Shown piece by piece: positions 25,753-45,669 of a DNA stretch of 64,000 nucleotides (the first letter of the stretch is position 1; each line of letters opens with the position of its first letter). The notes under the pieces were generated by a model that searched no databases, had not been told where the DNA came from, and was given only the letters and a program-made list of their open reading frames with translations. The translations under genes and the position numbers were made by a program. The stretch lies in IMG/VR virus record IMGVR_UViG_3300021373_000005; one strand, given 5' to 3'. This DNA is from a virus.

Positions 25753-26178
25753 ATGTTTGAAATGGAAAACGCATTCGATTTTAAGAAACCAACAGTTCAA
25801 ATGTTGGGAAGATGGCAACCCTGGCATGAAGGTCATACAAAATTATTTGAAAAGGCCTTGACATTGACGGGACAAGTTGTTATAATGGTACGTGAAGTAT
25901 ATGGATTTGAAGGTGATGCTGGTGCAGGACGCACTGTTGCTCAAACCGATAATCCTTTTGGAGAGATTGCTGTCATTGACGGTATTAAGAAAGGTCTTGG
26001 TGAAGCGGGCTATGAAGAAGGTCGCGAATATATGATTATGGCCGTTCCTAATATCGTCGACATCAGTTACGGTCGTGGAGTAGGTTATACATTTACAGAA
26101 CACGATCTTGGTGAAGATGTACATAAAATCTCTGCAACCAAAATTCGCGAACAAATGAGAGAAGAAGGTAAATTATGA
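25753..26178 (+). CDS. HIGH-family nucleotidyltransferase (cytidylyltransferase-like)
   Basis: GRWQPWHEGH, DNPF, ISATKIR. Confidence 0.75.
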   Translation: MFEMENAFDFKKPTVQMLGRWQPWHEGHTKLFEKALTLTGQVVIMVREVYGFEGDAGAGRTVAQTDNPFGEIAVIDGIKKGLGEAGYEEGREYMIMAVPNIVDISYGRGVGYTFTEHDLGEDVHKISATKIREQMREEGKL

Positions 26179-29588: not shown

Positions 29589-32147
29589 ATGGCATTGACA
29601 AAATTCTATACATCCGTTGAAAGGTATGGTAATAATATCTTACATCGTGGTTATGAAAACGGCAAACGTTTTTCGTATCGCGTACCTTTTCAACCAACTC
29701 TATATGTTCATACTCCGAAAGCTGGAGAAGAAGGTTATCGTTCTTTAGAAGGTGACCTGCCTGTATCTCCACACAAGTTTGGTGATATGCGTGAAGCAAA
29801 GAACTTCATTGAAGAATATAAAGGTGTTCATGGTATGAAGACCTTCGGTTCAACAAACTATGTTACTCAATTTATTCAAGAAGAATATCCTGACAAGATT
29901 ACATATGATGTAAGTCATGTGAATATTGTTTCATTTGATATTGAGGTTGACATCAGCGACGGTTATGCCAATATGGAAACGGCTGATAAACCTATTACTT
30001 CAATTGCTTATCATAGTTCAAGAAATGATACCTATTATGTACTTGGTCGTAAAGATTACGACAAGACAAAAACTGTAACTGATATTCCACACGACAAGAT
30101 TGAGTTTGTATTATTTGATGGAGTTGATGGTGAACGTGCTTTACTTCAATACTTTATGAAATTATGGACTAACGATTATCCAGATATCGTAACAGGTTGG
30201 AACGTTGAGTACTTTGATATTCAATACATCGTAACTCGTATCATAGCATTACTTGGAGAAGATACTGCAAGACGGTTATCTCCACATAAATCAATCAAAC
30301 AAAGATCCCGTGAAATCTTTGGTAAAGTCAATTCAACATATTCTATTATGGGTGTTGCTGTTATTGACTACATGGATTGCTTCAAGAAATTTGGTTATAA
30401 GTATGGTCCTCAAGAATCATATCGACTTGACCATATTGCTTATGTTGTCCTTGGTGAAAAGAAAATTGATTACTCTGAATATGGTTCGCTGACTGGATTG
30501 TGGGAAGAGAATCCACAATTATATTTGGACTATAACCTTAAAGATACTCAATTGATTGCTCGTCTTGAAGAAGAGACAGGATTGCTTGCTTTGGTTATGA
30601 CTGTTGCTTATGATGGTGGAGTTAATTATGGAGATGCTTTCGGAACGGTAGGTATTTGGGAATCAACCATTTATCGTAAACTGATGAAAGATAAAATTGT
30701 TCCTCCACTTAAAGGTAGTCCTGGTCAAAGAGCAGGAGATCTTGTAGGTGGTTATGTAAAAGATCCTAAAGTCGGAATGCATCCTTGGGTTGTATCATTT
30801 GACCTTAACTCTCTATATCCTCACTTGATGCTACAATATAATATGTCACCTGAAACATATATGCCTGATGACCGAGAATATGTAACTCAAGATATGGTTC
30901 TGAAAGGTGAATATCAAAATGATCGTCCAAATGTATCAGTTGCTGCCAACGGTGTTTGTTTCTCAAATAAGAAACTTGGAATCATTCCTGAAATCATTGA
31001 TGAATATTATAATAACCGTTCAGTTATCAAAAAGCAAATGATTGCTGCTGAACAACAGTTTGAGATTGAAAAAGATCCTGCTGAACTGAAAAGACTGAAA
31101 CGCGAAATCAATCAACTTCACAATTCACAAATGTCAATTAAGATTGCCATGAACAGTTTGTATGGTGCAACTGCTAACGTATATTTCTTATACTATATTA
31201 ACGAAATGGCAGAAGCAATTACAACTTCAGGTCAGTTAAGTATTCGTTATGCTCAAAAATCTGTAAACGATTATTTGAATAAAGTTCTTGGAACCGATGA
31301 TGTTGACTATATCATTTATATTGATACTGACTCTATCTATGTTGACTTTGGTCCTTTGATTACTGAAGTGTTCGGTACAACTGATATTGATAAAGACAAA
31401 GGTGAAGAGTTCCTTGACCGAGTATGTTCAACAAAGATTGAGCAAATCATTGAAGATGGTTACGAAAAGCTTGCCGCTGATTTAGGTACTTATCGTAATG
31501 CAATGGTAATGAAACGTGAAAAGATTGCTCACCGTGGAATTTTTGTTGCTAAGAAAAGATATATACTGAATACATTGAACTCTGAAGGAGTTCATTATGA
31601 TACTCCAAAGATATCAGTAACAGGTTTGGAATCAGTAAGATCCTCAACTCCTGAAATCTGTCGAGAGAAACTCAAGAAATGTTTTGAAGTTATTATGAAT
31701 ACTGACGAAGAAACAACTCAAGAGTTTATCAAAGATTTCAAAGAAGAATTTAAAAAGTTGGATCCGATTGCTATCGCAAAGACTTCAGGTGTATCTGAAC
31801 TTAAAAAGTATCAAGAGAAAGGATCCATATATAAGAAAGGTACTCCGATGCATGTTCGTGGTTCCTTGATGTATAATCATTTCTTAAAGGAAAAAGGACT
31901 TGATAAGAAATTTGAAACTATCCAAGGTGGAGATAAAGTCAAGCTACTTTATTTAAAGGTACCAAATCCTATTCGAGAAAACGCAATCTCGGTTCCTGGG
32001 TTATTGCCTAAACAACTTGGATTACATGAATATATTGATACTGAACTTCAGTTTGATAAAGTATTCTTAAATCCTATTCAATCAATCCTAGATGCGGTTG
32101 GTTGGTCAGCTGAACGAGTAAATACGATTGAAGATTTTTTCAGCTAA
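29589..32147 (+). CDS. gp43: Family B DNA polymerase
   Basis: FDIE, GWNVEYFD, SFDLNSLYP, KIAMNSLYG, YIDTDS, KKRY; no intron or intein seen. Confidence 0.97.
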   Translation: MALTKFYTSVERYGNNILHRGYENGKRFSYRVPFQPTLYVHTPKAGEEGYRSLEGDLPVSPHKFGDMREAKNFIEEYKGVHGMKTFGSTNYVTQFIQEEYPDKITYDVSHVNIVSFDIEVDISDGYANMETADKPITSIAYHSSRNDTYYVLGRKDYDKTKTVTDIPHDKIEFVLFDGVDGERALLQYFMKLWTNDYPDIVTGWNVEYFDIQYIVTRIIALLGEDTARRLSPHKSIKQRSREIFGKVNSTYSIMGVAVIDYMDCFKKFGYKYGPQESYRLDHIAYVVLGEKKIDYSEYGSLTGLWEENPQLYLDYNLKDTQLIARLEEETGLLALVMTVAYDGGVNYGDAFGTVGIWESTIYRKLMKDKIVPPLKGSPGQRAGDLVGGYVKDPKVGMHPWVVSFDLNSLYPHLMLQYNMSPETYMPDDREYVTQDMVLKGEYQNDRPNVSVAANGVCFSNKKLGIIPEIIDEYYNNRSVIKKQMIAAEQQFEIEKDPAELKRLKREINQLHNSQMSIKIAMNSLYGATANVYFLYYINEMAEAITTSGQLSIRYAQKSVNDYLNKVLGTDDVDYIIYIDTDSIYVDFGPLITEVFGTTDIDKDKGEEFLDRVCSTKIEQIIEDGYEKLAADLGTYRNAMVMKREKIAHRGIFVAKKRYILNTLNSEGVHYDTPKISVTGLESVRSSTPEICREKLKKCFEVIMNTDEETTQEFIKDFKEEFKKLDPIAIAKTSGVSELKKYQEKGSIYKKGTPMHVRGSLMYNHFLKEKGLDKKFETIQGGDKVKLLYLKVPNPIRENAISVPGLLPKQLGLHEYIDTELQFDKVFLNPIQSILDAVGWSAERVNTIEDFFS

Positions 32148-32495: not shown

Positions 32496-32707
32496 TAAAA
32501 ATTTACGGTAAAGACAATTGTGCATACTGTAATATGGCAAAACAGCTATGCGAATCAAAAGGACTTGATTACGAATACTTAATGCTTGATGAAGATTACA
32601 AGCAAGAAGAATTTTTTGAAACTTTTCCCGGTGCAAGAACCTTTCCTCAAATTCAAAAGGATGGAGAAAACATCGGTGGCTTTATGGAATTAAGAGAATT
32701 ATTATGA
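32492..32707 (+). CDS. nrdC: Glutaredoxin
   Basis: CAYC active site, RTFPQI, IGGF. Confidence 0.88.
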   Translation: MIKIYGKDNCAYCNMAKQLCESKGLDYEYLMLDEDYKQEEFFETFPGARTFPQIQKDGENIGGFMELRELL

Positions 32708-33123
32708 GTAAAGATTGGGTTAAAGATATACAAGATATGCAAACCAAATATCAGACAAGAGATTGGGTTGCGAATAACGCAAATGACATTAACAAATTAA
32801 AAGCGTTTTTGAGATTTAGAATTGATTTCTTGGAAGAGGAATTAACTGAAACTCGAAATGCGCAAAAAGTTATCGACTCCGAAGAAATCGTAGATGGTTT
32901 AGTTGACCTTTGTGTAGTGGCAATCGGTACTCTTGATGCCTTCGGAGTCGACCCTTATAAAGCTTGGGACGCAGTTCTCGAAGCAAACATGGCAAAAGAA
33001 GTAGGTGTAAAGGAAGGAAGGCCAAATCCACTTGGTGTACCTGACTTAATGAAACCAGAAGGATGGACGGCTCCATCTCATGAAGGAAATCATGGAGTCC
33101 TACCAACATTAAAAGGAGAATAA
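32704..33123 (+). CDS. MazG/PRA-PH-like all-alpha NTP pyrophosphatase
   Basis: LEEELTE, EEIVDGLVDL.VV..GT, V.EANM.K...KPEGW..P. Confidence 0.8.
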   Translation: MSKDWVKDIQDMQTKYQTRDWVANNANDINKLKAFLRFRIDFLEEELTETRNAQKVIDSEEIVDGLVDLCVVAIGTLDAFGVDPYKAWDAVLEANMAKEVGVKEGRPNPLGVPDLMKPEGWTAPSHEGNHGVLPTLKGE

Positions 33124-33863: not shown

Positions 33864-33892
33864 TTGACATTTCGTAGGAAGTATAGTATAAT
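33864..33892 (+). promoter_or_regulatory. Sigma70-type early promoter
   Basis: AACTATTGACA-17 nt-TATAAT. Confidence 0.8.
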
Positions 33893-33922: not shown

Positions 33923-34429
33923 ATGCAAACAGAAATGTTTAACGAAGACCTGTCGGTAGATGGGTCTTTATTAAAAGAACATCTAAGTAAGATGATATTC
34001 ATCGGCACGTTAAAAATAGACGGAGAGCAGCTTGAGTATCAAAAATCACCAAACATTCAACGCAAAGAACTAAATGAAGATTTAGTATATTATATGGTGT
34101 GTAAAGGTCAATTAATGAAAATTGGCATAGCAGGCGGTATGATGGGTTGGAATGGTCGTGTAGGAATGTACCGAAAAGGTATTCTTAACGGCAAAGGTGA
34201 TGGAACAAATCACAGAATCTTTCGTATTATGAAAGAACGCGGATTAACCAAAGAACTTATTTACGTATTTGGAATCTATACACCTCCACAGGTTGTTGAT
34301 GTAATATGTCCTATGAATGGAAAAGTTATGCAGCAAGAAGTTCAAATACATCGTAATATAGAAAGGTCTTTAACCGCAGAGTTTTTATCAGAAGGTTATG
34401 AGTTACCTTTCAGTAAGCAATTAAATTAA
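33923..34429 (+). CDS. denA: GIY-YIG nuclease resembling T4 endonuclease II
   Basis: LVYYMVCKGQLMKIG, R...YR, DGT..RI, IE...F and PF..Q line up by eye with T4 EndoII (VIYAIAINDELVYIG, RINYYR, DST, EE.LF, PWN.Q). Confidence 0.55.
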   Translation: MQTEMFNEDLSVDGSLLKEHLSKMIFIGTLKIDGEQLEYQKSPNIQRKELNEDLVYYMVCKGQLMKIGIAGGMMGWNGRVGMYRKGILNGKGDGTNHRIFRIMKERGLTKELIYVFGIYTPPQVVDVICPMNGKVMQQEVQIHRNIERSLTAEFLSEGYELPFSKQLN

Positions 34430-34434
34430 AACTA

Positions 34435-34463
34435 TTGACATTGTACACAAAATAATTTATAAT
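34435..34463 (+). promoter_or_regulatory. Sigma70-type early promoter
   Basis: AACTATTGACA-17 nt-TATAAT. Confidence 0.8.
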
Positions 34464-34483
34464 AGTACTTTACATTATGGAGA

Positions 34484-34834
34484 TTGCCTATGAGCAAACA
34501 AACAAACCCAGTTTCGGTTGATGTACTACAAGAGTGCGTTGACCTTCAGTTGAAAAAGTCTCGCGATTATCAGAATCCGAACTCAACTGTTCAACAAGCC
34601 GACTACTATCCTAACGGTATTACAACCATTCATGATATTATGCATGCAAAAATGCTTCGTATGAAATCTGTTATGGAAGCAATGCAGTCGGATGATTATG
34701 ATCCTAACTTTGAATCCCTTGAAGATTCAGCAAAAGATTTAATTAACTATTCAAGTTTCTTTGTCTCTTACTGTCGTAAAGGTATTAAAGGTCAAGATCC
34801 AACTAAAGATGTATTTAATAGGAGTACTAAATAA
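34484..34834 (+). CDS. Nucleotide-modification-associated all-alpha protein (Nmad1/DUF1599-like)
   Basis: ECVDLQLKKSRDY, K..R..S, SLEDSAKDLINY. Confidence 0.6.
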   Translation: MPMSKQTNPVSVDVLQECVDLQLKKSRDYQNPNSTVQQADYYPNGITTIHDIMHAKMLRMKSVMEAMQSDDYDPNFESLEDSAKDLINYSSFFVSYCRKGIKGQDPTKDVFNRSTK

Positions 34835-35088
34835 TGAGTAATGTGATATTACCGTCAAGTGACGAAGACAAGAAAAGAATCCGTGGCTGCATGGAAGAAA
34901 TGAGCAATTCATTTACAAGAATGGAATCAGAACGTGATTTTCAAAAAGAAGCAATTAATGCTTTGGCTGAAGAAGTACAGATTCCAAAATCAATCCTAAG
35001 GAAAACCGCAAGAGCTTTCCATAATCAAAATGTTTCAGATCTCGTTGCTGAAGTATCGGATATTGAAGCGTTAATGGAAACAATTTAA
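34834..35088 (+). CDS. DsbA-like dsDNA-binding protein
   Basis: Helical pattern E.S....ESERD..KEAI..L.EE..IPK..LRK.AR..H. Confidence 0.55.
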   Translation: MSNVILPSSDEDKKRIRGCMEEMSNSFTRMESERDFQKEAINALAEEVQIPKSILRKTARAFHNQNVSDLVAEVSDIEALMETI

Positions 35089-35762
35089 TGGACAGAGTTT
35101 CTAATATTCAACAAACCATCATTGACAAATATCTCAGTGAAGATTTTGTCATTGACAAGACAGGTGTAAAAACTGTTGAAATTATTGGTGCAACATTTAT
35201 TGCTGATAGAGATTATGTCATTCGTAAACCTGCGTATGAATATATCCAACGCGAATTAGAATGGTATAAATCACAATCATTATATGTTGATGATATTCCT
35301 GGTGGTGCTCCACAAATTTGGAAAGATGTCTCATCTGACGAAGGTAAGATTAATTCAAATTATGGTTGGTGCATTTACTCTGAAGAGAATGGTAATCAAT
35401 ACAAACATGTTCAGCGTGAATTGAGAAACAATCCAAACTCTCGTAGAGCAACAATGATTTATAATCGACCAAGTATGCATTTGGATTACAACCGAGATGG
35501 TATGTCTGACTTTATGTGTACCTATGCAAATACTTTTTATATTCGCGATGGTAAACTTGACTCACATTACCTAATGCGTTCTAACGACGCAGTCTTTGGT
35601 TATAATAATGATTATGCTTGGGCAAGATATGTTCAGAATCAACTTGCTGAAGATCTTGGTATTGAAGTTGGTAATCTGATTTGGACAGCATCAAACTTCC
35701 ATGTATATGAAAGACATTTCAACTTTATTGAGGAATTAATTGATGGACTCAAAGTGGGATAA
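35088..35762 (+). CDS. gp42: dCMP hydroxymethylase (thymidylate synthase fold)
   Basis: INSNYGW, SRRATMIY.RPSM, MSDFMCT catalytic Cys, MRSND..FG..NDY with Asp at the TS Asn177 position (cytosine specificity), HVYERHF. Confidence 0.88.
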   Translation: MDRVSNIQQTIIDKYLSEDFVIDKTGVKTVEIIGATFIADRDYVIRKPAYEYIQRELEWYKSQSLYVDDIPGGAPQIWKDVSSDEGKINSNYGWCIYSEENGNQYKHVQRELRNNPNSRRATMIYNRPSMHLDYNRDGMSDFMCTYANTFYIRDGKLDSHYLMRSNDAVFGYNNDYAWARYVQNQLAEDLGIEVGNLIWTASNFHVYERHFNFIEELIDGLKVG

Positions 35763-36195
35763 ACGCTTTATGCGTGTTGCTCAGGAAATATCTTCTTGGA
35801 GCAAAGATCCTTCAAAACAAATAGGAGCAGTGGCAGTTAACTCTGACCGTCGTATCCTAGCAACTGGGTATAATGGATTTCCAAAAGGAATTGAAGATAT
35901 ACCTGCTCGGTATGAAGATAGAACAATTAAATATGACTTGGTTGTTCATGCCGAGATGAACTGTATATACAATGCGACCTTTTCTGGCATTTCATTAAAG
36001 GATTCTACAATGTATGTATGGGGATTACCAGTTTGCCACGATTGTGCAAAAGGTATTATCCAAGTAGGCATAAATAGAATTGTCATTGGTATGTTGGATT
36101 CTCCACAAAAGTGGTTAGATTCATTTGAAAAATCAAGACGTATGTTTGACGAAGCAGATATTGCTATTGACTTTTTACATGATACTGTCAACTAA
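35740..36195 (+). CDS. cd: dCMP deaminase
   Basis: SKDPSKQIGAV, TGYNGFP, HAEMN, PVCHDCAK. Confidence 0.9.
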   Translation: MMDSKWDKRFMRVAQEISSWSKDPSKQIGAVAVNSDRRILATGYNGFPKGIEDIPARYEDRTIKYDLVVHAEMNCIYNATFSGISLKDSTMYVWGLPVCHDCAKGIIQVGINRIVIGMLDSPQKWLDSFEKSRRMFDEADIAIDFLHDTVN

Positions 36196-36199
36196 TCTA

Positions 36200-36228
36200 T
36201 TGACATTTATAGTAAACCATGTTATAAT
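36200..36228 (+). promoter_or_regulatory. Sigma70-type early promoter
   Basis: CTATTGACA-17 nt-TATAAT. Confidence 0.8.
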
Positions 36229-36256
36229 GGTAGTTAAATTTTAAGGATATTATATT

Positions 36257-36457
36257 ATGAAAGAAATTATTACAGATATGACTTATGGCATCGCGTTCGT
36301 TGCTATTATTTTCGGAACACTAGCAGGCGCTGTATTTTTAATGGAAGCAATCAATATGACTAAAGATAGTATTCGTATTGCTATTGCCGTTCCTTTATTC
36401 CTCTTCTTCTGTTATCACTTTGGTGGATTAACAAGATCCATTATCTTCAAGAAATAA
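36257..36457 (+). CDS. Small two-TM membrane protein
   Basis: Two hydrophobic segments. Confidence 0.65.
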   Translation: MKEIITDMTYGIAFVAIIFGTLAGAVFLMEAINMTKDSIRIAIAVPLFLFFCYHFGGLTRSIIFKK

Positions 36458-36459
36458 TT

Positions 36460-37494
36460 ATGGCATTACACAAAAGAATAGTACTTGACTTTGACGACAC
36501 ATTAGCGTTTACGTCAAACAGAGATTGGGAAAACGCAGAACCCAACATTGCTTTGATTGAAAAATGTAATGAATTATATAATGCAGGTTGGCAAGTAGAT
36601 ATTTTTACTGCTCGTGGTTCTATTTCTTGTAGGAGTAGAGTTGAAGCAGAAGAAAAGTATGGAGAACAAATACGGTCTTGGTTAGAAAAGCATCATGTAA
36701 AATATCATATGTTATCTTTTGATAAACCACTTGCTGCATATTATATTGATGATAAAGGTATTACACCTGAAGATTTTATATATGCTGACATTCGTGAATT
36801 AGAAGGTGGTCTATCAGGATCTGATATTTACACTGATGGTATGTTAGTACATAAGACCGCAAGTAATGCTCATGAAGTAGCAAAGTGGTACAAAGAAACA
36901 GGTTCAGCAGTTATGACTCCTGAAATCCATAGAGTGGTTGGTGATACAATTACAATGGATTACATTGACCACGATGAAGAGTTCTTCAAGCATTCTCCAT
37001 ATAAAGCATTAGCAATGATTCAAGAAGCACTTGATGAATTCGGTCATATACCTACTAAAAAGTTTTTAACATTTGATGACTATATCGCAAGGATTGTAGG
37101 TCATGTTCAGTTAGCTGATGTACCTGTGTTTAATGATATTGTTGAAAGAATGGCAAATATTAATTTAGAATACGGATATTGTCACGGAGATTTTGGTGTT
37201 AAGAACATGCTCTTTACAGAACATAACATGCACTTAATTGACCCTATCCCTAATGTATTTGGTTGTCGTGAACTTGACATAGCAAAATTTATCGCAAGCT
37301 TACTAATTAATCGTTATAACATTGAACTACAAGATCTTTCAATCAATACACTGTTAGCTTACAATCCTCAAATAGAAAGAAACACATTAATAATTTTAAC
37401 AGCAGCTGAGATTATTCGTGTATATAAGTATCACCCTGATAAAGATTTTATTATACAATGTGTTAACGACATTACGGAAGAATTATGTTTTTAG
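36460..37494 (+). CDS. HAD phosphatase (EcbF/BcbF-like) fused to an APH/choline-kinase-like domain
   Basis: N-terminal DFDDTL, FTARG, KP.A.YYIDDK; C-terminal CHGDFGVKNML and LIDP. Confidence 0.8.
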   Translation: MALHKRIVLDFDDTLAFTSNRDWENAEPNIALIEKCNELYNAGWQVDIFTARGSISCRSRVEAEEKYGEQIRSWLEKHHVKYHMLSFDKPLAAYYIDDKGITPEDFIYADIRELEGGLSGSDIYTDGMLVHKTASNAHEVAKWYKETGSAVMTPEIHRVVGDTITMDYIDHDEEFFKHSPYKALAMIQEALDEFGHIPTKKFLTFDDYIARIVGHVQLADVPVFNDIVERMANINLEYGYCHGDFGVKNMLFTEHNMHLIDPIPNVFGCRELDIAKFIASLLINRYNIELQDLSINTLLAYNPQIERNTLIILTAAEIIRVYKYHPDKDFIIQCVNDITEELCF

Positions 37495-37919
37495 ATAGAA
37501 AGAAATTACCTCAAGATTTTAAAGTAGGATTTACATGTTCTACTTTTGATTTGTTTCACGCAGGTCATATTGTAATGTTACAAGAAGCAAAGACATTGTG
37601 TGATTATTTGATTGTTGGATTATTAATTGACCCAACAGTGGATCGTCCTGAGTCAAAGAACAAGCCTATTCAAACTCCTTTTGAGAGATACATACAGGTT
37701 TCATCTTGTAAGTATGTTGACGAAGTTATTCCTTTTACAACAGAACAAGAAATCGTTGATATGATCTTGACGATTAATCCTGACATAAGAATTGTTGGTG
37801 AAGAATATAAAGACCAAGAACATACAGGTAAAGGCTTATGTCCTGTTCATTATAATAGACGAAGACACTCATTCAGTTCAACAGAGCTCAGACAACGTGT
37901 AGTCAATTCTAATAAATAA
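37485..37919 (+). CDS. Cytidylyltransferase (TagD/HldE-C-like)
   Basis: STFDLFHAGH, LIVGL, ER...V.SCKYVDEVIP, SFSST. Confidence 0.85.
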   Translation: MFLDRKKLPQDFKVGFTCSTFDLFHAGHIVMLQEAKTLCDYLIVGLLIDPTVDRPESKNKPIQTPFERYIQVSSCKYVDEVIPFTTEQEIVDMILTINPDIRIVGEEYKDQEHTGKGLCPVHYNRRRHSFSSTELRQRVVNSNK

Positions 37920-37944
37920 AAATACAGTCGGATAATTATACATT

Positions 37945-39204
37945 ATGAAAAACATTGGATTCGCAAAGATTGGCAAGTCAGTCAAGTTTAAACGCAATAG
38001 GTTCTCACCTATCGGTGGAGACAACGAGCCATCTTCAGTTCTAATTGCACTCGCAAATAATAACCCAGACAAAACATTTTATATTATCGGTCGTTCTGAC
38101 TTCAGCACTCTTTCTGAATCTGAAGCTTTGGATTTATTTCCGTATGATAATGTAATTGATATTTGGAAAGGTATTAAGAATGATGAAACCGATAGCTTTT
38201 ATCGTCATGTGATTAACTATTTTAATCAGAGAGGATTTAAGTTAGATTATACTGTTATGATGGTAGGTCAAGTTGGTACTGTTACGATCCCAGGTAAGAT
38301 TACTCAAGTGAAACATTTAAAAGAAGGTATCACTGACGGTAAACCTGCTTCTGTGATTGATATGACAAAGAACTATACTTCTCCTATTGCGATTTGGTTA
38401 AATGAAGAAAAGCCTGACTACGTTGAGATTGTAAATGATCCACGATATGTAATGAATCAATCAAGAGATATCTTTCATTTACCAAATAAGTCGTTAGGTC
38501 AATATGATTATAAGTATAAAGCAAGTACAATAGAATCATATGAAAACCAAGAACGATCCGACAAATTTGTAGAATCTGTATATGCAGGAATGGAAACAAA
38601 CTTTTGTGTTCGTTACGACTATACAGAAGAATTTAATACAACAAGAAACATTCCTTTTATGGTCATATTGAATGAAGGTAAACCTTCAAGATATGGATTG
38701 ATGAAGGAATGGGTATTGAACGATTTTGAAGATGTTGAAGTTTATGGAAAATGGGAACACCCAGATACAGAAACTGATGCTAGGTTCAAAGGTTCTATTC
38801 ATCTTGACGATGTAATTCGTAAATTGGATAATGTTAAATTTACGTTTATTATTCCAATTGAAAAAGGTTGGGTAACAGCAAAGTATATTGAAATGATACA
38901 CGCAGGAGTTGTTCCTTTCTTACATCCAACATATGATGAACAGAAACATTTACCTATACCTGACTTCTTACGACCAAAAACTCCAACTGAGTTTAAAGAA
39001 AGAATGGATAGATTACTAAATAATGAAGAAGAGTACTTATCAGTAGTTAAAGGATTGCGTAAACTTATATGCAAGCCTGAGTTATATGATGGCACCTTCT
39101 TAAACAATAAAATTATGACAGCAATTGATGAAGATTATATCGCTACTGATATATCACAATACGAAAAGAAAACTGCTGCTACACTTGAGGACTTTTTTGG
39201 ATGA
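37945..39204 (+). CDS. Putative GT-B glycosyltransferase (DNA-modifying candidate)
   Basis: C-terminal YGKW...FKG...L..VKFTFIIPI..GWVTAKY.E...AGVVPF resembles a GT-B nucleotide-sugar domain; context; C-terminal TLEDFFG. Confidence 0.5.
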   Translation: MKNIGFAKIGKSVKFKRNRFSPIGGDNEPSSVLIALANNNPDKTFYIIGRSDFSTLSESEALDLFPYDNVIDIWKGIKNDETDSFYRHVINYFNQRGFKLDYTVMMVGQVGTVTIPGKITQVKHLKEGITDGKPASVIDMTKNYTSPIAIWLNEEKPDYVEIVNDPRYVMNQSRDIFHLPNKSLGQYDYKYKASTIESYENQERSDKFVESVYAGMETNFCVRYDYTEEFNTTRNIPFMVILNEGKPSRYGLMKEWVLNDFEDVEVYGKWEHPDTETDARFKGSIHLDDVIRKLDNVKFTFIIPIEKGWVTAKYIEMIHAGVVPFLHPTYDEQKHLPIPDFLRPKTPTEFKERMDRLLNNEEEYLSVVKGLRKLICKPELYDGTFLNNKIMTAIDEDYIATDISQYEKKTAATLEDFFG

Positions 39205-40421
39205 AACAAGATATAACATGGGCACCACTTATTCCGCTTATTGGTGGACAAATGCTAGGAGCGGAAAAAGCTTTCGGTAAACCACCCGAAGCAATTTATT
39301 CTTATAGTGGATTTGAAGCTAACGATGGACATTATGTCAATTATCAACAAGTAACGAAAGGACGTGATATTCCTTATGTATTACTTGATTCTGAAAATCC
39401 AAATATTAAACAAGTGGATGTAGTATCAGGTACTCCACCTTGCGCTGCATTATCACAATTAAATACTGGATTAACTGAAGAATCAAAAGGTGCTAAATGT
39501 GCAAAGAACGAATTTATGTATCAGGTCTTTCAAGATGGTATTGATGTTTTAGGAGCAAAGGTTGTTATTGTTGAGAACGCTCCTGCACTATATACAAACA
39601 AAGGTCGTCCAGTCGCAAATAGACTGTATGAAATTTGTGCTGAGAGAGGTTATTCTTTATCTCTGTATAAAACCTCAACGAGATATCATGGAGTTCCTCA
39701 GGGACGAGATAGAACGTTTGCGATTGGTTGGAAGTCAAGTACTTCTCCTGTATTAAACTGGTATAACCGTGATCGTAAATCATTTGCCGAATATCTTAAA
39801 GAAATTCCTGATGATGCATTACAACACGATTTGATTATTAATAAGAATGTACCTGAAGAACCTTACTATACATTTATTAAAACAAAAACAAACCGTGATG
39901 TAAGAGAGATTATGTTAGAAGAAGATGTAAAGACAACTCTCAATTATGTTAACAAAAAAGGTTGGATGAAAGAAGCAAACGAATGGTTCCATAAGACAGG
40001 ACATGAAAAAGGTATTAAGTATTCTGACCACGCAATTAAAAAGTATGCTGATGGATTAGGTGTATGGGATGGTTCAGTACATGTCTTTGGTGATTATATG
40101 AATGCAGTCATTGGTCGTAATATGGTTGATACGATTCACCCAACTGAAGATAGGTCATTAACTATTCGTGAAGCTCTACATATGATGGGATTCCCAGAAG
40201 ACTTTGAACTATTAGGTGGATTGCCTAAAGTAAATCATATTGCTCAAAATGTTCCTGTACCTACATCAAGAGATTTACATTCTGAGATTGGTAAATTTTT
40301 AAGAGGCGAACTAACATTATCTGATACCACTTATTTAAGACAAAACAATCATAAACAATTAATGGAGTTTGACCCTAACGGAAAAGATACAACTCCATCT
40401 CTTGAAGAATTTATGTCATAA
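39201..40421 (+). CDS. DNA cytosine-C5 methyltransferase homolog with atypical motif I
   Basis: Motif IV GTPPC, VI VENAP, VIII PQGRDR, IX R.LTIREA..MGFPEDF, X AQNVP; motif I reads LIPLIGG. Confidence 0.8.
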   Translation: MKQDITWAPLIPLIGGQMLGAEKAFGKPPEAIYSYSGFEANDGHYVNYQQVTKGRDIPYVLLDSENPNIKQVDVVSGTPPCAALSQLNTGLTEESKGAKCAKNEFMYQVFQDGIDVLGAKVVIVENAPALYTNKGRPVANRLYEICAERGYSLSLYKTSTRYHGVPQGRDRTFAIGWKSSTSPVLNWYNRDRKSFAEYLKEIPDDALQHDLIINKNVPEEPYYTFIKTKTNRDVREIMLEEDVKTTLNYVNKKGWMKEANEWFHKTGHEKGIKYSDHAIKKYADGLGVWDGSVHVFGDYMNAVIGRNMVDTIHPTEDRSLTIREALHMMGFPEDFELLGGLPKVNHIAQNVPVPTSRDLHSEIGKFLRGELTLSDTTYLRQNNHKQLMEFDPNGKDTTPSLEEFMS

Positions 40422-40425
40422 ACTA

Positions 40426-40454
40426 TTGACATTCAATAAAAAATAGAGTATAAT
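40426..40454 (+). promoter_or_regulatory. Sigma70-type early promoter
   Basis: AACTATTGACA-17 nt-TATAAT. Confidence 0.8.
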
Positions 40455-40461
40455 ATACACC

Positions 40462-41100
40462 ATGAGAAATGATTTAATAATAGACTTTGAAACAATGGGT
40501 CAAGACGTACATAATTGTGCTGTCATTGATATGTCAGTAATGGTATTTCAATGGGACAAGTTTACGTCTGACGATCCATACAATTTAGGCGATGTATTCA
40601 AGGTGAAGAAATTCAAATTGAATGTATCGGAGCAAGTCAAGAATTACAATTGGGTAGTTGATAAAGGTACATTGGACTTTTGGTCGCAGCAGGATTCTGA
40701 AGTAAGAAAGAATATTGCTCCTAAGAGTTCTGATTTATCTGTTGCTGATTTTGTAAAACAATTCACAGATTTTTTAATTGATAGCCCAAAGATTGATTTT
40801 TGGTGGTCAAGGTCTAATTCATTTGACCCAGTTATTCTGGAAAGATTATTTAAATCTCAGAATAAAGTAAATCATTTACAATCACACTTACAACATTGGA
40901 AAGTTAGAGATACAAGAACTTTTATTGATGCAAAGTTTGATTTTGGTTTGAAGAAGAATGGATTCCCTCCTTGTGCTAATGAAGATAAATGGGATTCTGT
41001 ATTTAAAGCACATGATTCAGCTTGGGATATATTGGCAGACGTAATGAGATTACAATCAATCACAAGAGCTGAAAATGATATGGAGCAAATCACAGTATGA
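40462..41100 (+). CDS. dexA: 3'-5' exonuclease (DEDDh, DexA-like)
   Basis: IIDFETMG, WSRSNSFD..IL, W.VRD.RTF, HDSAWD. Confidence 0.75.
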   Translation: MRNDLIIDFETMGQDVHNCAVIDMSVMVFQWDKFTSDDPYNLGDVFKVKKFKLNVSEQVKNYNWVVDKGTLDFWSQQDSEVRKNIAPKSSDLSVADFVKQFTDFLIDSPKIDFWWSRSNSFDPVILERLFKSQNKVNHLQSHLQHWKVRDTRTFIDAKFDFGLKKNGFPPCANEDKWDSVFKAHDSAWDILADVMRLQSITRAENDMEQITV

Positions 41101-41966
41101 AATTAGAAGTAAAAACAGAAGAACTACAAAAACAACGACTCTTTATTGGAACACCTATGTATGGTGGATCTTGTGCAGGATTATATACAAAGTCAACAAA
41201 TGATTTAAGTATGTTATGTTCATCGCATAAAATTCCAATGAAATACTATTTCTTATTTAACGAAAGTTTAGTACAAAGAGCTAGGAATTATATTGTTGAT
41301 GAATTCCTTCGTTCTGACTGTACTCATTTATTGTTTATAGATTCAGATATTGGATTTGACCCAAGAGATGCATTAGCATTACTTGCATTACAAATATCAG
41401 ACCCAGAGAAGTATGATATTGTATGCGGTCCATATCCAAAGAAAACAATTGCATGGGAAAAGGTTTCTGTAGCAGCACAGCAAGGTGTTGGAAAGGAAAA
41501 TCCTTTTGAACTTGAACAATATACATCAGATTTTGTCTTTAACCCTGTTGCGGATATAAGACAATTTAAACTCTCCGACCCTGTTGAAGTGGCAGAAGGT
41601 GGAACTGGGTTTATGTTAATTACAAGAGATGCTCTCGAAAGATATCGAGACACATATCCAGAGTTATCATATAAACCTGACCATGTTCGTACTGACAAGT
41701 TTGACGGTACTCGTGAGATTCATGCTTTCTTTGATTGTGTCATTGACCCAGAGTCAAAGAGGTACTTATCCGAGGATTACTTTTTCTGTAAGATGGCTCG
41801 TAAAGCAGGTCTTTCAGTTTGGATGTGTCCTTGGATGAAAATCAACCATGTTGGTTCTTATATCTTTAAGGGTGACATGGGTGCTCTAGGTCAACTAGGA
41901 GTTACTGCTACTGCAGATTCTAAATCTAATAAGAAAGCTTATAATCCTGTTGACAAGTCCAAGTAA
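41097..41966 (+). CDS. GT-A-like glycosyltransferase-related protein
   Basis: IGTPMYGG, ESLVQRARN, THLLFIDSDI (DxD-like), GTGFMLI, YLSEDY.FC. Confidence 0.7.
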   Translation: MKLEVKTEELQKQRLFIGTPMYGGSCAGLYTKSTNDLSMLCSSHKIPMKYYFLFNESLVQRARNYIVDEFLRSDCTHLLFIDSDIGFDPRDALALLALQISDPEKYDIVCGPYPKKTIAWEKVSVAAQQGVGKENPFELEQYTSDFVFNPVADIRQFKLSDPVEVAEGGTGFMLITRDALERYRDTYPELSYKPDHVRTDKFDGTREIHAFFDCVIDPESKRYLSEDYFFCKMARKAGLSVWMCPWMKINHVGSYIFKGDMGALGQLGVTATADSKSNKKAYNPVDKSK

Positions 41967-42013: not shown

Positions 42014-42676
42014 ATGAAATTTTCTAACGAAACTTTGACGGTCTTAAAAAGCTTTACTCAAATCAACAAGTCAATCTTGATGAAAGAAGGTAATGTTCTT
42101 AAGACTATCACTCCGGAGAAGACATTAATTGCTATCGCAGACATTCCTGATGAAATTCCATCAGATGCATGTGTATACGATCTTTCAAGATTTTTATCAA
42201 TTTTGTCTTTATATAATGACCCAGATGTAGAGTTTTTTGATAAATACTTTATTATCTCGGAAGGTAAGCGTAGAACGAAATATGTCTATGCAGATTTATC
42301 AATGATACATACACCACCTGAAAAGGATATTACTATTCCTTCAGCAGATGTTGTAGTTAATGTATCTAATGATGAATTAACTTCAGTGCTCAAAGCAGCA
42401 GGGGTATTACAATTTTCAGAGATTGCGTTTGTAGGCGAAGGCGGCAAATGCTATCTGAAAGCAATCGACAGTACGAACGAAGGCGCAGATGACTTTGGCG
42501 TTGAAATCGGGGATACTGCCGACGAGTTTAAAATTATTATTAAAACTGATAATTTAAAACTCATGCCTTTGGATTATGAGGTTACGCTTTGTTCAAAAGG
42601 TATCTCAGAATTTAAAGGTCAAGGTGTCACATATTATGTGGCTATAGATTCAAAGTCGACTTATAATAAAAGGTGA
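42014..42676 (+). CDS. gp45: Sliding clamp
   Basis: MKFSNETLTVLKSF..IN.SI, VYDL..FLS.LSL, F.IIIK..NLKL. Confidence 0.93.
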   Translation: MKFSNETLTVLKSFTQINKSILMKEGNVLKTITPEKTLIAIADIPDEIPSDACVYDLSRFLSILSLYNDPDVEFFDKYFIISEGKRRTKYVYADLSMIHTPPEKDITIPSADVVVNVSNDELTSVLKAAGVLQFSEIAFVGEGGKCYLKAIDSTNEGADDFGVEIGDTADEFKIIIKTDNLKLMPLDYEVTLCSKGISEFKGQGVTYYVAIDSKSTYNKR

Positions 42677-45078: not shown

Positions 45079-45165
45079 ATTTAGTAAGGTGCCGTAAGGG
45101 CTTTACAAAAGGTGATGGGTAATAACCATCGAATAATAATATCTAGCTTATTAAAGGAGATAAAA

Positions 45166-45615
45166 ATGACTGGATTAAATATAAATCAACTACACCCTTT
45201 TGCTGTAGGATTCGATAGAGTCTTCGACAGATTGGTGGAGTTCCCTCAAGTACATCAATCACAAGGCTTCCCGCCTTACAATATCAGAAGAGACGAAGAC
45301 AAGTTCTATATTGACCTTGCTTTGGCAGGACTTGATATTGATGATGTAGAAATCGAAGTAAAAGAAGATGTATTAACCATTCGTTCCACATGGGATGAAG
45401 CAGGTGATTACTTCAATGGCGGCGGTGAGTATGTTCACCGTGGTATTTCTTTCAAGAAGTTCAAAAGAAGCTTTACTCTTGCGGACGATATTGAAGTAAT
45501 TGACGCCAACTTCGCAAACGGTCTTTTAACTGTCTCATTGGAAAGAATTATTCCTGAGGCAAAGAAAGCACGTAAAATTAAGATTAAAACTGAGAAAGAA
45601 CTTCTCAAAGGTTAA
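45166..45615 (+). CDS. hsp20: Small heat-shock protein (Hsp20/IbpA-like)
   Basis: GFDRVFD, FPPYNI, YVHRGIS...F.RSF.L, A.F.NGLL.V.LE...PE; start after AAGGAG at 45166. Confidence 0.93.
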   Translation: MTGLNINQLHPFAVGFDRVFDRLVEFPQVHQSQGFPPYNIRRDEDKFYIDLALAGLDIDDVEIEVKEDVLTIRSTWDEAGDYFNGGGEYVHRGISFKKFKRSFTLADDIEVIDANFANGLLTVSLERIIPEAKKARKIKIKTEKELLKG

Positions 45616-45669
45616 TCTATTTTAATCCGGGAGGTCGCAATGGCCTCCCAACTAAAAGGAAACTATATT

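What the first reader, a model, noticed from the sequence alone, without database searches (positions are those of the whole stretch)
33923..41966. Cytosine hypermodification island with an unusual enzyme set (lead candidate)
Seen, co-oriented under four early promoters: EndoII-like nuclease, Nmad1-like protein, DsbA-like protein, dCMP hydroxymethylase with the cytosine-specific Asp, dCMP deaminase, phosphatase-kinase fusion, cytidylyltransferase, GT-B-like protein, C5-MTase homolog, DexA-like exonuclease and GT-A-like protein; a MazG-like pyrophosphatase lies just upstream. Established: T4 makes hmdCMP, glucosylates DNA with host UDP-glucose and degrades unmodified host DNA; some T4 relatives make their own arabinose donor. 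Inference: this phage builds its own activated sugar or polyol and installs a cytosine modification that may be undescribed. A gp42-type enzyme and a C5-MTase in one island is not the T4 or TET-type scheme.
Basis: partly seen in the sequence, partly recalled or inferred. Interest (0 to 1): 0.88.

Follow-up and report, generated by a model that had tools for sequence, protein, structure and literature searches.

The report
Phage hydroxymethylcytosine sugar-coating gene island
A marine T4-like phage carries genes to replace cytosine with hydroxymethylcytosine and coat it with a phage-made sugar, probably heptose; the sugar pathway is already published, but a conserved methyltransferase-like partner enzyme remains unexplained.

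Summary
The island is real. All genes are co-oriented and sit behind perfect sigma-70 consensus promoters.

It encodes:
- a true T4 gp42-type dCMP hydroxymethylase (E 9e-74 to T4 gp42). It keeps every residue diagnostic for making 5hm-dCMP rather than 5ho-dCMP;
- a dCMP deaminase;
- a HAD-phosphatase/APH-like-kinase fusion and a cytidylyltransferase-family enzyme;
- a GT-B whose model best matches T4 beta-glucosyltransferase;
- a divergent C5-methyltransferase-family protein (MT).

The three-enzyme sugar module has the architecture of the published 'contig 53' cluster, which makes heptosyl-5hmC. The sugar chemistry is therefore probably not new.

Three points go beyond the literature I read:
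1. 5hmC comes from gp42, not from MT plus TET.
2. The MT belongs to a large phage-only subfamily (about 400 clusters). Its signature is IPLxGG/PCA/ENAP/QNVP. It lay beside a hydroxymethylase-type ThyA homolog in nine of the ten lineages with enough flank, usually with DNA glycosyltransferases between. I saw no TET.
3. GT-B and MT both end in the polymerase's own C-terminal tail, which suggests tethering to the sliding clamp.

What the MT does on DNA that should hold no unmodified cytosine is unknown.

This scan reached the same reading on another genome (e1-5376904).

The parts
32704..33123 (+). MazG-like nucleotide pyrophosphohydrolase (139 aa). It is a candidate dCTPase that would clear dCTP (gp56 analogue); its specificity is not shown.
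   Evidence: Pfam PRA-PH 9e-9; PHROG 671 'nucleotide pyrophosphohydrolase' 2.4e-21; weak matches to MazG-like DR2231 structures.
33864..33892 (+). Perfect sigma-70 consensus promoter ahead of ORF 33923-34429.
   Evidence: 12/12 match, TTGACA-N17-TATAAT.
33923..34429 (+). 168-aa protein of unknown family, possibly a GIY-YIG (EndoII-like) nuclease. It is a variable gene, present in only some relatives.
   Evidence: No Pfam, PHROG or NCBIfam hit. The only PDB lead is Hpy188I at E 0.96. Found in L004, L023, L024 and L026 only.
34435..34463 (+). Perfect consensus promoter of the unit o116 - DsbA - gp42 - cd.
   Evidence: 12/12 match.
34484..34834 (+). 116-aa all-alpha MazG/DUF1599 (Nmad1)-like protein.
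   Evidence: PHROG 18404 'hydrolase' 5.4e-13; PF07659 E 0.026. A DUF1599 gene sits at the same place in L105.
34834..35088 (+). T4 DsbA-like small transcription regulator (84 aa).
   Evidence: PHROG 639 4.1e-13; Pfam Phage_DsbA 4.6e-4, below its cut-off.
35088..35762 (+). gp42-type dCMP hydroxymethylase (5hm-dCMP synthase), 224 aa.
   Evidence: E 8.6e-74 to T4 gp42 structures. Motifs DFMC and MRSND...NND give Cys144, an acidic residue at the L143 position, Asp kept at the D169 position and Asp at the N177 position. The diagnostic comes from PMC13326640.
35740..36195 (+). dCMP deaminase (151 aa) with HAE and PCxxC zinc motifs.
   Evidence: Pfam 6.8e-21; PHROG 174 1.3e-44; sequence.
36200..36228 (+). 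Perfect consensus promoter of the operon o66 - HAD/kinase - NT - GT-B - MT.
   Evidence: 12/12 match with an extended -10 TG.
36257..36457 (+). 66-aa protein with two hydrophobic helices. It is the first gene of the sugar operon and its role is unknown.
   Evidence: Sequence; conserved at 45-97% in relatives.
36460..37494 (+). Bifunctional enzyme. Residues about 1-110 are an AfhF/GmhB-like HAD phosphatase. Residues about 120-344 are an APH/choline-kinase-like sugar kinase. Predicted reaction: sugar-omega-P to sugar-1,omega-P2 to sugar-1-P.
   Evidence: TIGR01689 2.2e-14. 1xpj 1.7e-11 and 9iqw 2.2e-10. 33% identity to the JS09/RB69 gp51 homolog. The kinase part matches L082's NT-kinase at E 0.002. 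33% identity over the full length to a like fusion in L090. Motifs.
37485..37919 (+). HIGH-motif nucleotidyltransferase (144 aa) of the HldE-domain-II / TagD / ECT family. It would make the NDP-sugar; the nucleotide is unknown, ADP or CDP being most likely.
   Evidence: PF01467 3.3e-15; TIGR02199 rfaE_dom_II 1.4e-21; PHROG 7878 4e-32; 3elb 5.6e-23 and 1coz 1.1e-14; FHAGH and SSTELR motifs.
37945..39204 (+). GT-B DNA glycosyltransferase (419 aa), T4 beta-GT-like, ending in the polymerase-type tail TLEDFFG.
   Evidence: Model pLDDT 88.6. Its top six PDB matches are T4 beta-GT, E 1e-8 to 3e-7. Atlas features point to Glyco_trans_1_2 and T4-Gluco-transf clusters. Tail.
39201..40421 (+). C5-cytosine-methyltransferase-family enzyme (406 aa) of a distinct phage subfamily. 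Its start overlaps the GT-B stop, and it ends in the tail SLEEFMS. Its reaction is unknown.
   Evidence: PF00145 4.3e-22. Model pLDDT 89.7 matches M.HaeIII, M.HhaI and DNMT1. Motifs. 401 clusters at E<=1e-30. Tail.
40426..40454 (+). Perfect consensus promoter of dexA - PHROG 1574.
   Evidence: 12/12 match.
40462..41100 (+). DexA-like 3'-5' exonuclease (212 aa). It is a neighbour; a role in modification is not shown.
   Evidence: Rv2179c-like 1.4e-18; PHROG 255 'exonuclease' 6e-32.
41097..41966 (+). PHROG 1574 protein (289 aa), probably a GT-A-fold glycosyltransferase (R...DSD...EDY). Its target is unknown. It has no clamp tail, so whether it belongs to the DNA pathway is open.
   Evidence: PHROG 1574 1.2e-58; weak Glyco_transf_21. 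Homologs occur in Cr30, phiM12, DLP6, cyanophage ACG-2014f and HTVC027P. Tail.
42014..42676 (+). gp45 sliding clamp, the presumed docking partner of the polymerase, GT-B and MT tails.
   Evidence: gp45-slide_C 6.4e-14.
32124..32147 (+). C-terminal tail of DNA polymerase gp43 (TIEDFFS). It is the reference for the tails of GT-B (39181-39204) and MT (40398-40421).
   Evidence: Of 275 ORFs of 45 aa or more in all six frames, only these three end in [LIVM][DE][DE]F[FMLIW]x0-2.

Best explanation
The island is a two-stage cytosine hypermodification system of a marine T4-like phage.

Stage 1, before replication:
- A gp42 ortholog converts dCMP to 5-hydroxymethyl-dCMP.
- MazG-type pyrophosphatases probably clear dCTP.
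- dCMP deaminase feeds dUMP to a ThyX enzyme encoded elsewhere in the genome.
- The polymerase therefore builds DNA with 5hmC in place of C.

Stage 2, after replication, from one operon (36257-40421):
- The kinase half of the HAD/kinase fusion phosphorylates C1 of a host sugar phosphate. This is most likely D-glycero-D-manno-heptose 7-phosphate; arabinose 5-phosphate is the alternative.
- The HAD half removes the distal phosphate.
- The HldE-domain-II-like nucleotidyltransferase makes the NDP-sugar.
- The T4 beta-GT-like GT-B transfers the sugar to the hydroxyl of 5hmC in DNA. It is held at the fork by a C-terminal tail that copies the polymerase's clamp-binding tail.

The last gene encodes a clamp-tailed C5-methyltransferase-fold enzyme. 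It keeps the catalytic Cys, Glu and Arg-x-Arg and the acidic residues that hold the adenosine of SAM. It differs at the three positions that line the C5/methyl pocket: PCQ becomes PCA, ENV becomes ENA and GN becomes QN. My best guess is that it acts on C5-substituted cytosine (5hmC), or transfers something other than a plain methyl group, rather than making ordinary 5mC.

Shown here: the gene identities, the diagnostic residues, the folds, the conservation and the gene associations.

Inferred: the sugar's identity, the nucleotide carrier, clamp docking, and the MT reaction. I give about 0.45 to the non-canonical reading of the MT and 0.35 to plain methylation of residual C.
For: Hydroxymethylase:
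- E 8.6e-74 to T4 gp42 structures.
- Asp at the N177 position, an acidic residue at L143 and Asp kept at D169, read against the published D169N test for 5ho-dCMP synthases.
- Relatives have ThyX and only one ThyA-family gene.

Sugar module:
- The HAD part is homologous to AfhF/1xpj.
- The NT matches rfaE domain II at 1.4e-21 and the HldE PHROG at 4e-32.
- The architecture equals that of 'contig 53', where all three enzymes were needed for heptosyl- and di-heptosyl-5hmC.

GT-B: T4 beta-GT gives its top six structural matches.

Operon: a perfect promoter at 36200 and overlapping stop/start codons.

Tails:
- Only the polymerase, GT-B and MT carry the tail, out of 275 ORFs.
- The tail is kept down to 51-53% identity.
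- In L104 the polymerase and an MT paralog both end in VNTLF.

MT:
- C5-MTase fold.
- Family-wide signature IPLxGG/PCA(S)/ENAP/QxRxR/xQNVP, with Asp retained at motifs II and III.
- 401 clusters at E<=1e-30.
- Almost absent from cellular genomes: one hit, on a 3.5-kb MAG contig.
- A hydroxymethylase-type ThyA homolog lies beside it in the window clade, L072/L068, L082, XG4, L091, L102, L103, L104 and L105. DNA glycosyltransferases usually lie between them.
Against: - No chemistry was measured.
- I could not compare sequences with contig 53, which is not available, so the heptose call rests on architecture and on family hits below the curated equivalog cut-offs.
- The HAD domain is equally close to the arabinose-pathway phosphatase AfhF.
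- More distant relatives use the AfhE/AfhF layout of the arabinose pathway.
- The best solved relatives of the NT are ethanolamine-phosphate and glycerol-3-phosphate cytidylyltransferases.
- The specificity of the MazG proteins is unknown, so complete replacement of C is assumed, not shown.
- No gp1-type dNMP kinase was identified in the window.
- The pocket argument for the MT rests on sequence alignment and on recalled M.HhaI engineering work (Q82A/N304A), not on a modelled cofactor.
- Related phages use canonical C5-MTs that are active as 5mC methylases.
- The TET search had no positive control.
Confidence: 0.6

Rival explanations
1. Same scheme, but the sugar is arabinose or another pentose, as in the RB69/HY126/DLP3 pathway. 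Host arabinose 5-phosphate is phosphorylated at C1, dephosphorylated at C5, activated and transferred. The product would be arabinosyl-5hmC.
For: - The HAD domain is 33% identical to the JS09/RB69 gp51 (AfhF) homolog and matches 9iqw at 2.2e-10.
- More distant members of the same GT-B/MT lineage (L072, L082, XG4, L102, L103) carry the AfhE-like NT-kinase fusion plus a separate AfhF-like HAD.
- The published pathway is described.
Against: - The window's NT belongs to another family, HldE-II/TagD type rather than MurU type.
- Its fusion pattern (HAD+kinase) equals that of the heptose-producing contig 53.
- No SIS isomerase is found in the window or in relatives.
- The GT-B matches the HY126 glycosyltransferase only at rank 35.
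Confidence: 0.2
2. The MT-like enzyme is an ordinary SAM-dependent DNA C5-methyltransferase. It rides the clamp and methylates whatever unmodified cytosine escapes replacement (early replication, repair or recombination patches). This would give 5mC as a back-up protection against C-specific nucleases or restriction.
For: - All catalytic motifs are kept, as are the acidic residues of motifs II and III.
- Related marine T4-like phages use C5-MTs that methylate GpC in E. coli.
- Clamp tethering fits a scanning enzyme.
Against: - If replacement is as complete as in T4, there is almost no substrate.
- Yet the family is conserved in about 400 clusters and sits in the same gene block as ThyA-type hydroxymethylases and glycosyltransferases.
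- PCQ, ENV, GN and FxGxG are all altered family-wide.
- Burke et al. found no methylase activity for C5-MT clades with disturbed motifs.
Confidence: 0.35
3. The donor is a CDP-activated polyol or alcohol phosphate (glycerol-, ribitol- or ethanolamine-phosphate). The 'GT-B' then acts as a TagF-like phosphotransferase and gives a phosphodiester-linked group on 5hmC.
For: The best solved relatives of the NT are ethanolamine-phosphate and glycerol-3-phosphate cytidylyltransferases (TIGR01518 3.6e-14).
Against: - The best structural matches of the GT-B are T4 beta-GT, HMW1C/NGT and BshA. No TagF-type enzyme is among the matches listed.
- A kinase plus a phosphatase is the logic of a sugar-1-phosphate route and is not needed for glycerol 3-phosphate.
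- The contig 53 enzymes gave heptose.
Confidence: 0.07
4. The glycosyltransferases do not act on DNA. They act on host envelope glycans or virion proteins, and the phage carries plain 5hmC.
For: - The window holds other glycan genes: phosphomannomutase and two FkbM methyltransferases.
- The PHROG 1574 GT-A-like protein has no clamp tail. It also occurs in phages not checked here for any cytosine-modification genes.
Against: - The GT-B resembles the DNA enzyme T4 beta-GT best.
- It carries the polymerase's tail.
- It is translationally coupled to a DNA-methyltransferase-fold enzyme.
- It always lies with a dCMP hydroxymethylase.
- This rival stays open only for PHROG 1574.
Confidence: 0.05

Closest known systems
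'Contig 53' subclass III cytosine-glycosylation gene cluster (Pyle, Lund, O'Toole, Saleh; bioRxiv 10.1101/2023.12.21.572611)
   Same: - The same three-enzyme sugar module: a HAD-like/APH-like bifunctional enzyme, a cytidylyltransferase, and a GT-B with a T4 beta-GT-like fold.
- A C5-MT in the cluster.
- It comes from a metavirome screen whose contigs show the same kind of genomic setting (DNA polymerase, clamp loader A, HSP and redoxin neighbours).
- Product in E. coli: mono- and di-heptosyl-5hmC.
   Different: - There, 5hmC is made after replication by C5-MT plus a TET-type dioxygenase, at GpC-type sites.
- Here a gp42 ortholog makes hm-dCMP before replication, which implies replacement of all C. 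No TET is found in the island or in a 156-kb relative.
- Sequence-level homology to contig 53 could not be tested.
T4 glucosyl-hmC system (gp42, gp56, gp1, alpha-GT, beta-GT)
   Same: - A gp42 ortholog (53-56% identity to T-even gp42).
- dCMP deaminase.
- A beta-GT-like GT-B.
- From my own knowledge, not checked here: T4 alpha-GT has been reported to interact with gp45.
   Different: - T4 uses host UDP-glucose and has no sugar-activation genes and no C5-MTase-fold enzyme.
- Here the phage makes its own NDP-sugar, and both DNA-acting enzymes carry an explicit polymerase-type tail.
RB69 / DLP3 / HY126 arabinosyl-5-hydroxycytosine system (PMC13326640)
   Same: - The logic of the donor pathway: kinase at C1, HAD phosphatase at the distal phosphate, nucleotidyltransferase, GT-B.
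- The HAD domain is homologous to AfhF.
- More distant relatives of the window's island (L072, L082, Pseudoalteromonas phage XG4) keep the AfhE-like NT-kinase fusion.
   Different: - The base is 5hoC, made by a flavin-dependent ThyA homolog with D169N. The window and all its relatives keep Asp.
- No arabinose-5-phosphate isomerase here.
- A different NT family and a different fusion pattern.
- No MT-like enzyme is listed in the RB69 or DLP3 clusters.
Non-methyl C5 transferases of the C5-MTase fold, e.g. CmoX carboxymethyltransferase of Synechococcus phage S-B43 (PMC12783734)
   Same: - A phage C5-MTase-fold enzyme.
- The residue at the M.HhaI N304 position is changed, and that change re-tunes what is transferred to C5.
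   Different: - CmoX has SPPC and Arg at the N304 position and travels with CmoA. The window's enzyme has TPPC-A and Gln there, with no CmoA nearby.
- CmoX acts on unmodified C.

Membership tests
T4 gp42-type dCMP hydroxymethylase (5hm-dCMP synthase) | ThyA fold with close similarity to T4 gp42 | tested here: met
   Pfam 4.4e-22; 1b49/1b5e E 8.6e-74 over residues 17-215; 53-56% identity to T-even gp42.
T4 gp42-type dCMP hydroxymethylase (5hm-dCMP synthase) | Catalytic Cys, Asp at the E. coli ThyA N177 position (cytosine specificity) and an acidic residue at the L143 position | tested here: met
   SDFMC and NNDYAW motifs; criteria from PMC13326640.
T4 gp42-type dCMP hydroxymethylase (5hm-dCMP synthase) | Asp kept at the D169 position (Asn would mark a 5ho-dCMP synthase) | tested here: met
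   MRSND in the window and in all relatives, against MRSQN in the RB69-type JS09 enzyme (criterion).
T4 gp42-type dCMP hydroxymethylase (5hm-dCMP synthase) | Produces 5hm-dCMP from dCMP and methylene-THF | not testable with these tools
   Needs an enzyme or in vivo assay.
'Contig 53'-type heptosyl-5hmC cluster | A HAD-like/APH-like bifunctional enzyme, a cytidylyltransferase and a GT-B DNA glycosyltransferase in one cluster | tested here: met
   description of contig 53.
'Contig 53'-type heptosyl-5hmC cluster | 5hmC supplied by C5-MT plus 5mYOX/TET | tested here: not met
   No Tet_JBP hit in five relatives' records, including a 156-kb contig (that search had no positive control). None is listed in the Pfam tables of ten neighbourhoods. 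A gp42 ortholog is present instead.
'Contig 53'-type heptosyl-5hmC cluster | Sequence homology to the contig 53 proteins; heptose as the product | not tested
   The contig 53 sequences and supplements are not held. The product needs LC-MS.
RB69/HY126 Afh arabinosyl-5hoC pathway | 5ho-dCMP synthase (D169N) | tested here: not met
   Asp retained.
RB69/HY126 Afh arabinosyl-5hoC pathway | AfhF-type HAD phosphatase | tested here: met
   9iqw 2.2e-10 and 1xpj 1.7e-11; 33% identity to JS09 gp51.
RB69/HY126 Afh arabinosyl-5hoC pathway | AfhE-type MurU-like NT fused to a kinase, plus an arabinose-5-phosphate isomerase | tested here: not met
   The kinase is fused to the HAD domain instead, and the NT is of the PF01467 family. 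No SIS domain is found in G001-G004. The AfhE-type layout is present in relatives L072, L082 and XG4.
Canonical DNA cytosine-5 methyltransferase (PF00145) | C5-MTase fold with motif IV Pro-Cys, motif VI Glu-Asn and motif VIII Arg-x-Arg | tested here: met
   PF00145 4.3e-22; Foldseek E about 5e-14 to M.HaeIII and 2e-13 to M.HhaI; C81, E125, R169 and R171 invariant.
Canonical DNA cytosine-5 methyltransferase (PF00145) | Consensus cofactor/target pocket: FxGxG (I), PCQ (IV), ENV (VI), GN (X) | tested here: not met
   The family has IPL[IV]GG, PCA/PCS, ENAP and (A/C/S/T)QNVP throughout. The acidic residues of motifs II and III are kept by alignment.
Canonical DNA cytosine-5 methyltransferase (PF00145) | Transfers methyl from SAM to C5 of unmodified cytosine in DNA | not testable with these tools
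   Needs an assay on C DNA and on 5hmC DNA.
CmoX DNA C5-carboxymethyltransferase | Arg at the M.HhaI N304 position, an SPPC motif and a CmoA neighbour | tested here: not met
   Gln at that position, TPPC, and no CmoA in the island (criteria).
Clamp-binding C-terminal tail (T4/RB69 gp43 type) | The extreme C-terminus copies the cognate polymerase's tail and co-varies with it | tested here: met
   Window: TIEDFFS (polymerase), TLEDFFG (GT-B), SLEEFMS (MT); 3 of 275 ORFs. Conserved in relatives. In L104 the polymerase and an MT both end in VNTLF.
Clamp-binding C-terminal tail (T4/RB69 gp43 type) | Physical binding to gp45 | not tested

The most novel reading that the evidence does not exclude
The clamp-tethered MT-like enzyme is not a methylase of unmodified cytosine. 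It would be a new kind of DNA-modifying enzyme that uses the C5-MTase covalent mechanism (Cys attack at C6) on 5-hydroxymethylcytosine. It might exchange or remove the hydroxymethyl group, or attach a group other than methyl. Virions of this very common marine phage group would then carry a cytosine derivative not yet described, alongside glycosyl-5hmC.
Probability: 0.3. Interest if true: 0.9.

Novelty: new variant of a known kind. Interest (0 to 1): 0.6.

Why it matters
Phage DNA hypermodifications decide which restriction, CRISPR and type IV defence systems work against a phage. They have also repeatedly yielded tools such as T4 beta-GT, TET and CmoX.

This island shows that the published heptose-type donor module also serves pre-replicative, gp42-based 5hmC. 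The phage lineage that carries it is abundant in ocean metagenomes.

More importantly, it points to a large, phage-restricted branch of the C5-methyltransferase fold. That branch travels with dCMP hydroxymethylases and DNA glycosyltransferases, has a re-shaped C5/cofactor pocket, and is docked to the replication clamp. In a genome that should hold no unmodified cytosine, such an enzyme has no obvious job. Finding that job could reveal new DNA chemistry or a new quality-control step in base replacement.

Tried and rejected
Searches that gave nothing:
- Megablast of the island against 50,697 phage records: no match. The window's own genome is not held, so genome-wide absences rest on relatives' contigs (G002 is 73% complete).
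- Sequence searches are almost blind to the GT-B. Pfam, PHROG and NCBIfam gave nothing at default thresholds, and a PDB profile search gave nothing. Only the fold search identified it.

Readings rejected:
- 5ho-dCMP synthase, because Asp is kept at D169.
- TET scheme: no Tet_JBP hit in five relatives. That search had no positive control, so the result is weak on its own.
- The extra 308-aa gene of some relatives was suspected to be a TET. It looks like a GT-A/GT8-type transferase instead.
- CmoX-type carboxymethyltransferase.
- SIS isomerase: none found.

Tools unavailable or material not held:
Nothing was folded.
- Supplements of the TET paper are not held, so I could not place this MT among the C5-MT clades I-VI or compare it with contig 53.

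Inconclusive:
- PDB sequence searches of the PHROG 1574 protein and of the 168-aa ORF gave nothing usable.
- Fused family members (768 to 1462 aa) showed no second Pfam domain, apart from one zf-CXXC.

Full report
**What is there.** The interval lies in the early/replication region of a T4-like phage. DNA polymerase gp43 is upstream (29589-32147). The clamp gp45, the clamp loader gp44/62, RegA, HSP20 and a redoxin are downstream. Six perfect TTGACA-N17-TATAAT promoters sit in the intergenic gaps at 32152, 33864, 34435, 36200, 40426 and 41950. They define four units:
- o116 - DsbA - gp42 - cd
- o66 - HAD/kinase - NT - GT-B - MT
- dexA - PHROG 1574
- gp45 onwards

The nearest isolates by polymerase are only 43-45% identical (Phage C48C1 and T4-like cyanophages). 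Even so, 80 IMG/VR loci carry the MT at 51-99% identity, and every one with 12 kb or more keeps the same gene order.

**The base.** ORF 35088-35762 is a genuine gp42 ortholog.
- It matches the T4 dCMP hydroxymethylase structures at E 8.6e-74. It matches the HY126-type enzymes (9iqu/9iqc) at only about 5e-15.
- Lee et al. (NAR 2026, PMC13326640) showed that RB69-type ThyA homologs make 5-hydroxy-dCMP and are marked by D169N.
- The window's enzyme and all its relatives keep Asp there. They also have Asp at the N177 position and an acidic residue at the L143 position.
- Relatives' contigs carry ThyX and only this one ThyA-family gene, so the gene is not needed for dTMP.
- I therefore read it as a 5hm-dCMP synthase.
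- A MazG-like pyrophosphatase (32704-33123) and a second MazG/DUF1599-like protein (34484-34834) are candidates for clearing dCTP. Their specificity is not shown.

**The sugar.**
- The HAD half of ORF 36460-37494 is homologous to the arabinose-1,5-bisphosphate phosphatase AfhF and to 1xpj.
- Its C-terminal half is an APH/choline-kinase-like kinase with an intact HGDxxxxN motif.
- ORF 37485-37919 is a HIGH-motif nucleotidyltransferase. It is closest to HldE domain II (TIGR02199 1.4e-21; PHROG 7878 4e-32) and to TagD/ECT structures.
- The GT-B model (pLDDT 88.6) has T4 beta-glucosyltransferase as its six best PDB matches. T4 alpha-GT, BshA and the HY126 glycosyltransferase come further down.
- This trio is the architecture of 'contig 53' in Pyle et al. 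(bioRxiv 10.1101/2023.12.21.572611). There, a HAD-like/APH-like bifunctional enzyme, a cytidylyltransferase and a GT-B were all required in E. coli to put one or two heptoses on 5hmC.
- The pathway logic is that of ADP-heptose synthesis: kinase at C1, HAD phosphatase at the distal phosphate, then nucleotidyl transfer. The arabinose route of HY126 follows the same logic.
- I favour heptose at about 0.55 and arabinose at about 0.2.
- No phage isomerase is present, so the starting sugar phosphate must come from the host.

**Plasticity of the donor module.** The GT-B/MT pair is constant across lineages, while the genes upstream of it vary.

| Lineage | Genes ahead of GT-B/MT |
|---|---|
| Window clade, L090 | HAD-kinase fusion plus cytidylyltransferase |
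| L072, L082, XG4, L102, L103 | AfhE-like NT-kinase fusion plus a separate AfhF-like HAD |
| L105 | PFK-like kinase |
| L104 | None; an alpha-GT-like enzyme only |

Many close relatives have a second, GT8-like transferase between the kinase and the NT. The window lacks it.

**The MT-like enzyme.** ORF 39201-40421 overlaps the GT-B stop codon. It folds confidently (pLDDT 89.7) as a DNA C5-methyltransferase.
- The catalytic Cys81, Glu125 and Arg169/Arg171 are invariant.
- By alignment with canonical phage C5-MTases, the acidic residues of motifs II and III, which hold the SAM adenosine, are kept.
- The whole family differs at four positions: FxGxG becomes IPL[IV]GG, PCQ becomes PCA/PCS, ENV becomes ENAP and GN becomes QN.
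- From my own knowledge, not checked here: Gln82, Val121 and Asn304 of M.HhaI line the space around the transferred methyl and C5, and Q82A/N304A were used to make room for larger groups.
- In CmoX, a change at the N304 position sets the cofactor. The window's enzyme is not a CmoX.
- The family is large: 401 clusters at E<=1e-30.
- It is essentially phage-only. The single hit in 185,579 species genomes lies on a 3.5-kb MAG contig.

**Gene association.** Ten lineages gave enough flank to judge.
- In nine, the MT lies in one gene block with a ThyA homolog that carries the hydroxymethylase signature. These are the window clade, L072/L068, L082, XG4, L091, L102, L103, L104 and L105. The MT usually lies directly after DNA glycosyltransferases.
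- The exception is L094/L095. No ThyA-family gene is listed within 9 kb of its MT.
- L089, L090 and L093 are contigs of 2-6 kb and cannot show a neighbourhood. L090 has a HAD-kinase fusion and a cytidylyltransferase directly before its MT.
- In cyanophage S-TIM5 a 'ThyA' gene lies about 2.4 kb from the MT homolog, on the opposite strand. It has Asp at the N177 position.
- No TET was seen in any of these neighbourhoods.
- This MT is therefore not the methyl donor of a TET pathway. Its substrate in DNA built from hm-dCTP is unexplained.

**Clamp tails.** I followed a note from this scan (e1-5829938) and tested it.
- Of 275 ORFs in six frames, only the polymerase (TIEDFFS), the GT-B (TLEDFFG) and the MT (SLEEFMS) end in [LIVM][DE][DE]F[FMLIW]x.
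- The tails persist in relatives down to 51-53% identity, while the linkers ahead of them drift.
- They co-vary with the polymerase. In L104 the polymerase and one MT paralog both end in VNTLF.
- The cytosolic sugar enzymes, DexA and PHROG 1574 lack the tail.
- This argues that the GT-B and the MT work on newly replicated DNA.
- The binding prediction could not be run.

**Verdict.**
The 'EndoII-like', 'Nmad1-like', 'DsbA-like' and 'GT-A-like' labels are only weakly supported.
The phage does make its own donor, and it is neither T4-type nor TET-type. However, the donor/GT module is already described and experimentally reconstituted.
- The open question is the MT family.
- A follow-up on another genome in this scan (e1-5376904) reached the same reading. 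I arrived at it independently from the literature and from the contexts above.

Noticed in passing
window 12973-13680 (-), 20301-21005 (+), 20992-21690 (-): The window holds a eukaryotic-type phosphomannomutase (PF03332, 3e-34) and two FkbM-family methyltransferases (3e-10 and 8e-12). These are further glycan-type genes outside the island. They could serve virion or envelope glycosylation, or sugar methylation.
   Followed up: no
window 25122-25553 and 25753-26178: A small P-loop kinase (APS_kinase/AAA_33-like, 1.7e-9) and a second, weak cytidylyltransferase-like protein lie next to a peptide deformylase (26175-26753). The kinase might be the nucleotide kinase that hm-dCMP needs; no gp1-type kinase was identified.
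   Followed up: no
L045:5382-6308, and the same position in L040, L023, L024, L026 and L057: Many close relatives carry an extra 308-aa gene between the HAD/kinase and the NT. It has a DDD motif, and its Atlas neighbours are Nucleotid_trans/Glyco_transf_8 clusters. It is probably a second glycosyltransferase, and the window lacks it.
   Followed up: partly
L001:7022-7552 (phage XG4), L102:7481-8002, L103:9272-9799, L104:8330-8848: A conserved 172-176-aa all-alpha protein (37-52% identity, ExxE-type motifs, MazG-like by eye) follows the MT gene in four other lineages. It is absent from the window.
   Followed up: partly
L091:2204-4652 and L104:5951-8321: Two lineages carry tandem paralogs of the MT-like gene. 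In the second copy in L104, simple pattern searches for the PLxGG, Pro-Cys and QNVP motifs found nothing, so it may be non-catalytic.
   Followed up: partly
L002:4757-5593 (-), cyanophage S-TIM5: The annotated 'ThyA' of S-TIM5 has Asp at the N177 specificity position. It lies about 2.4 kb from an MT-family homolog, so this cyanophage may also modify cytosine at the nucleotide level.
   Followed up: partly
protein P0323 (598 aa): One member of the MT family is fused to a zf-CXXC domain (6.6e-7), a reader of unmethylated CpG that is typical of eukaryotic DNMT1/TET proteins.
   Followed up: no
window 36257-36457: A conserved 66-aa protein with two hydrophobic helices opens the sugar/GT/MT operon directly behind its promoter. 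Its role is unknown.
   Followed up: no
window 7499-8284, 45112-45615, 45640-46179: The window encodes a class 3 lipase, an HSP20 and an AhpC-type redoxin. HSP and redoxin neighbours were also reported beside the TET-type clusters of marine phages (PMC8256090). This suggests that both kinds of modification island occupy the same genomic slot.
   Followed up: partly
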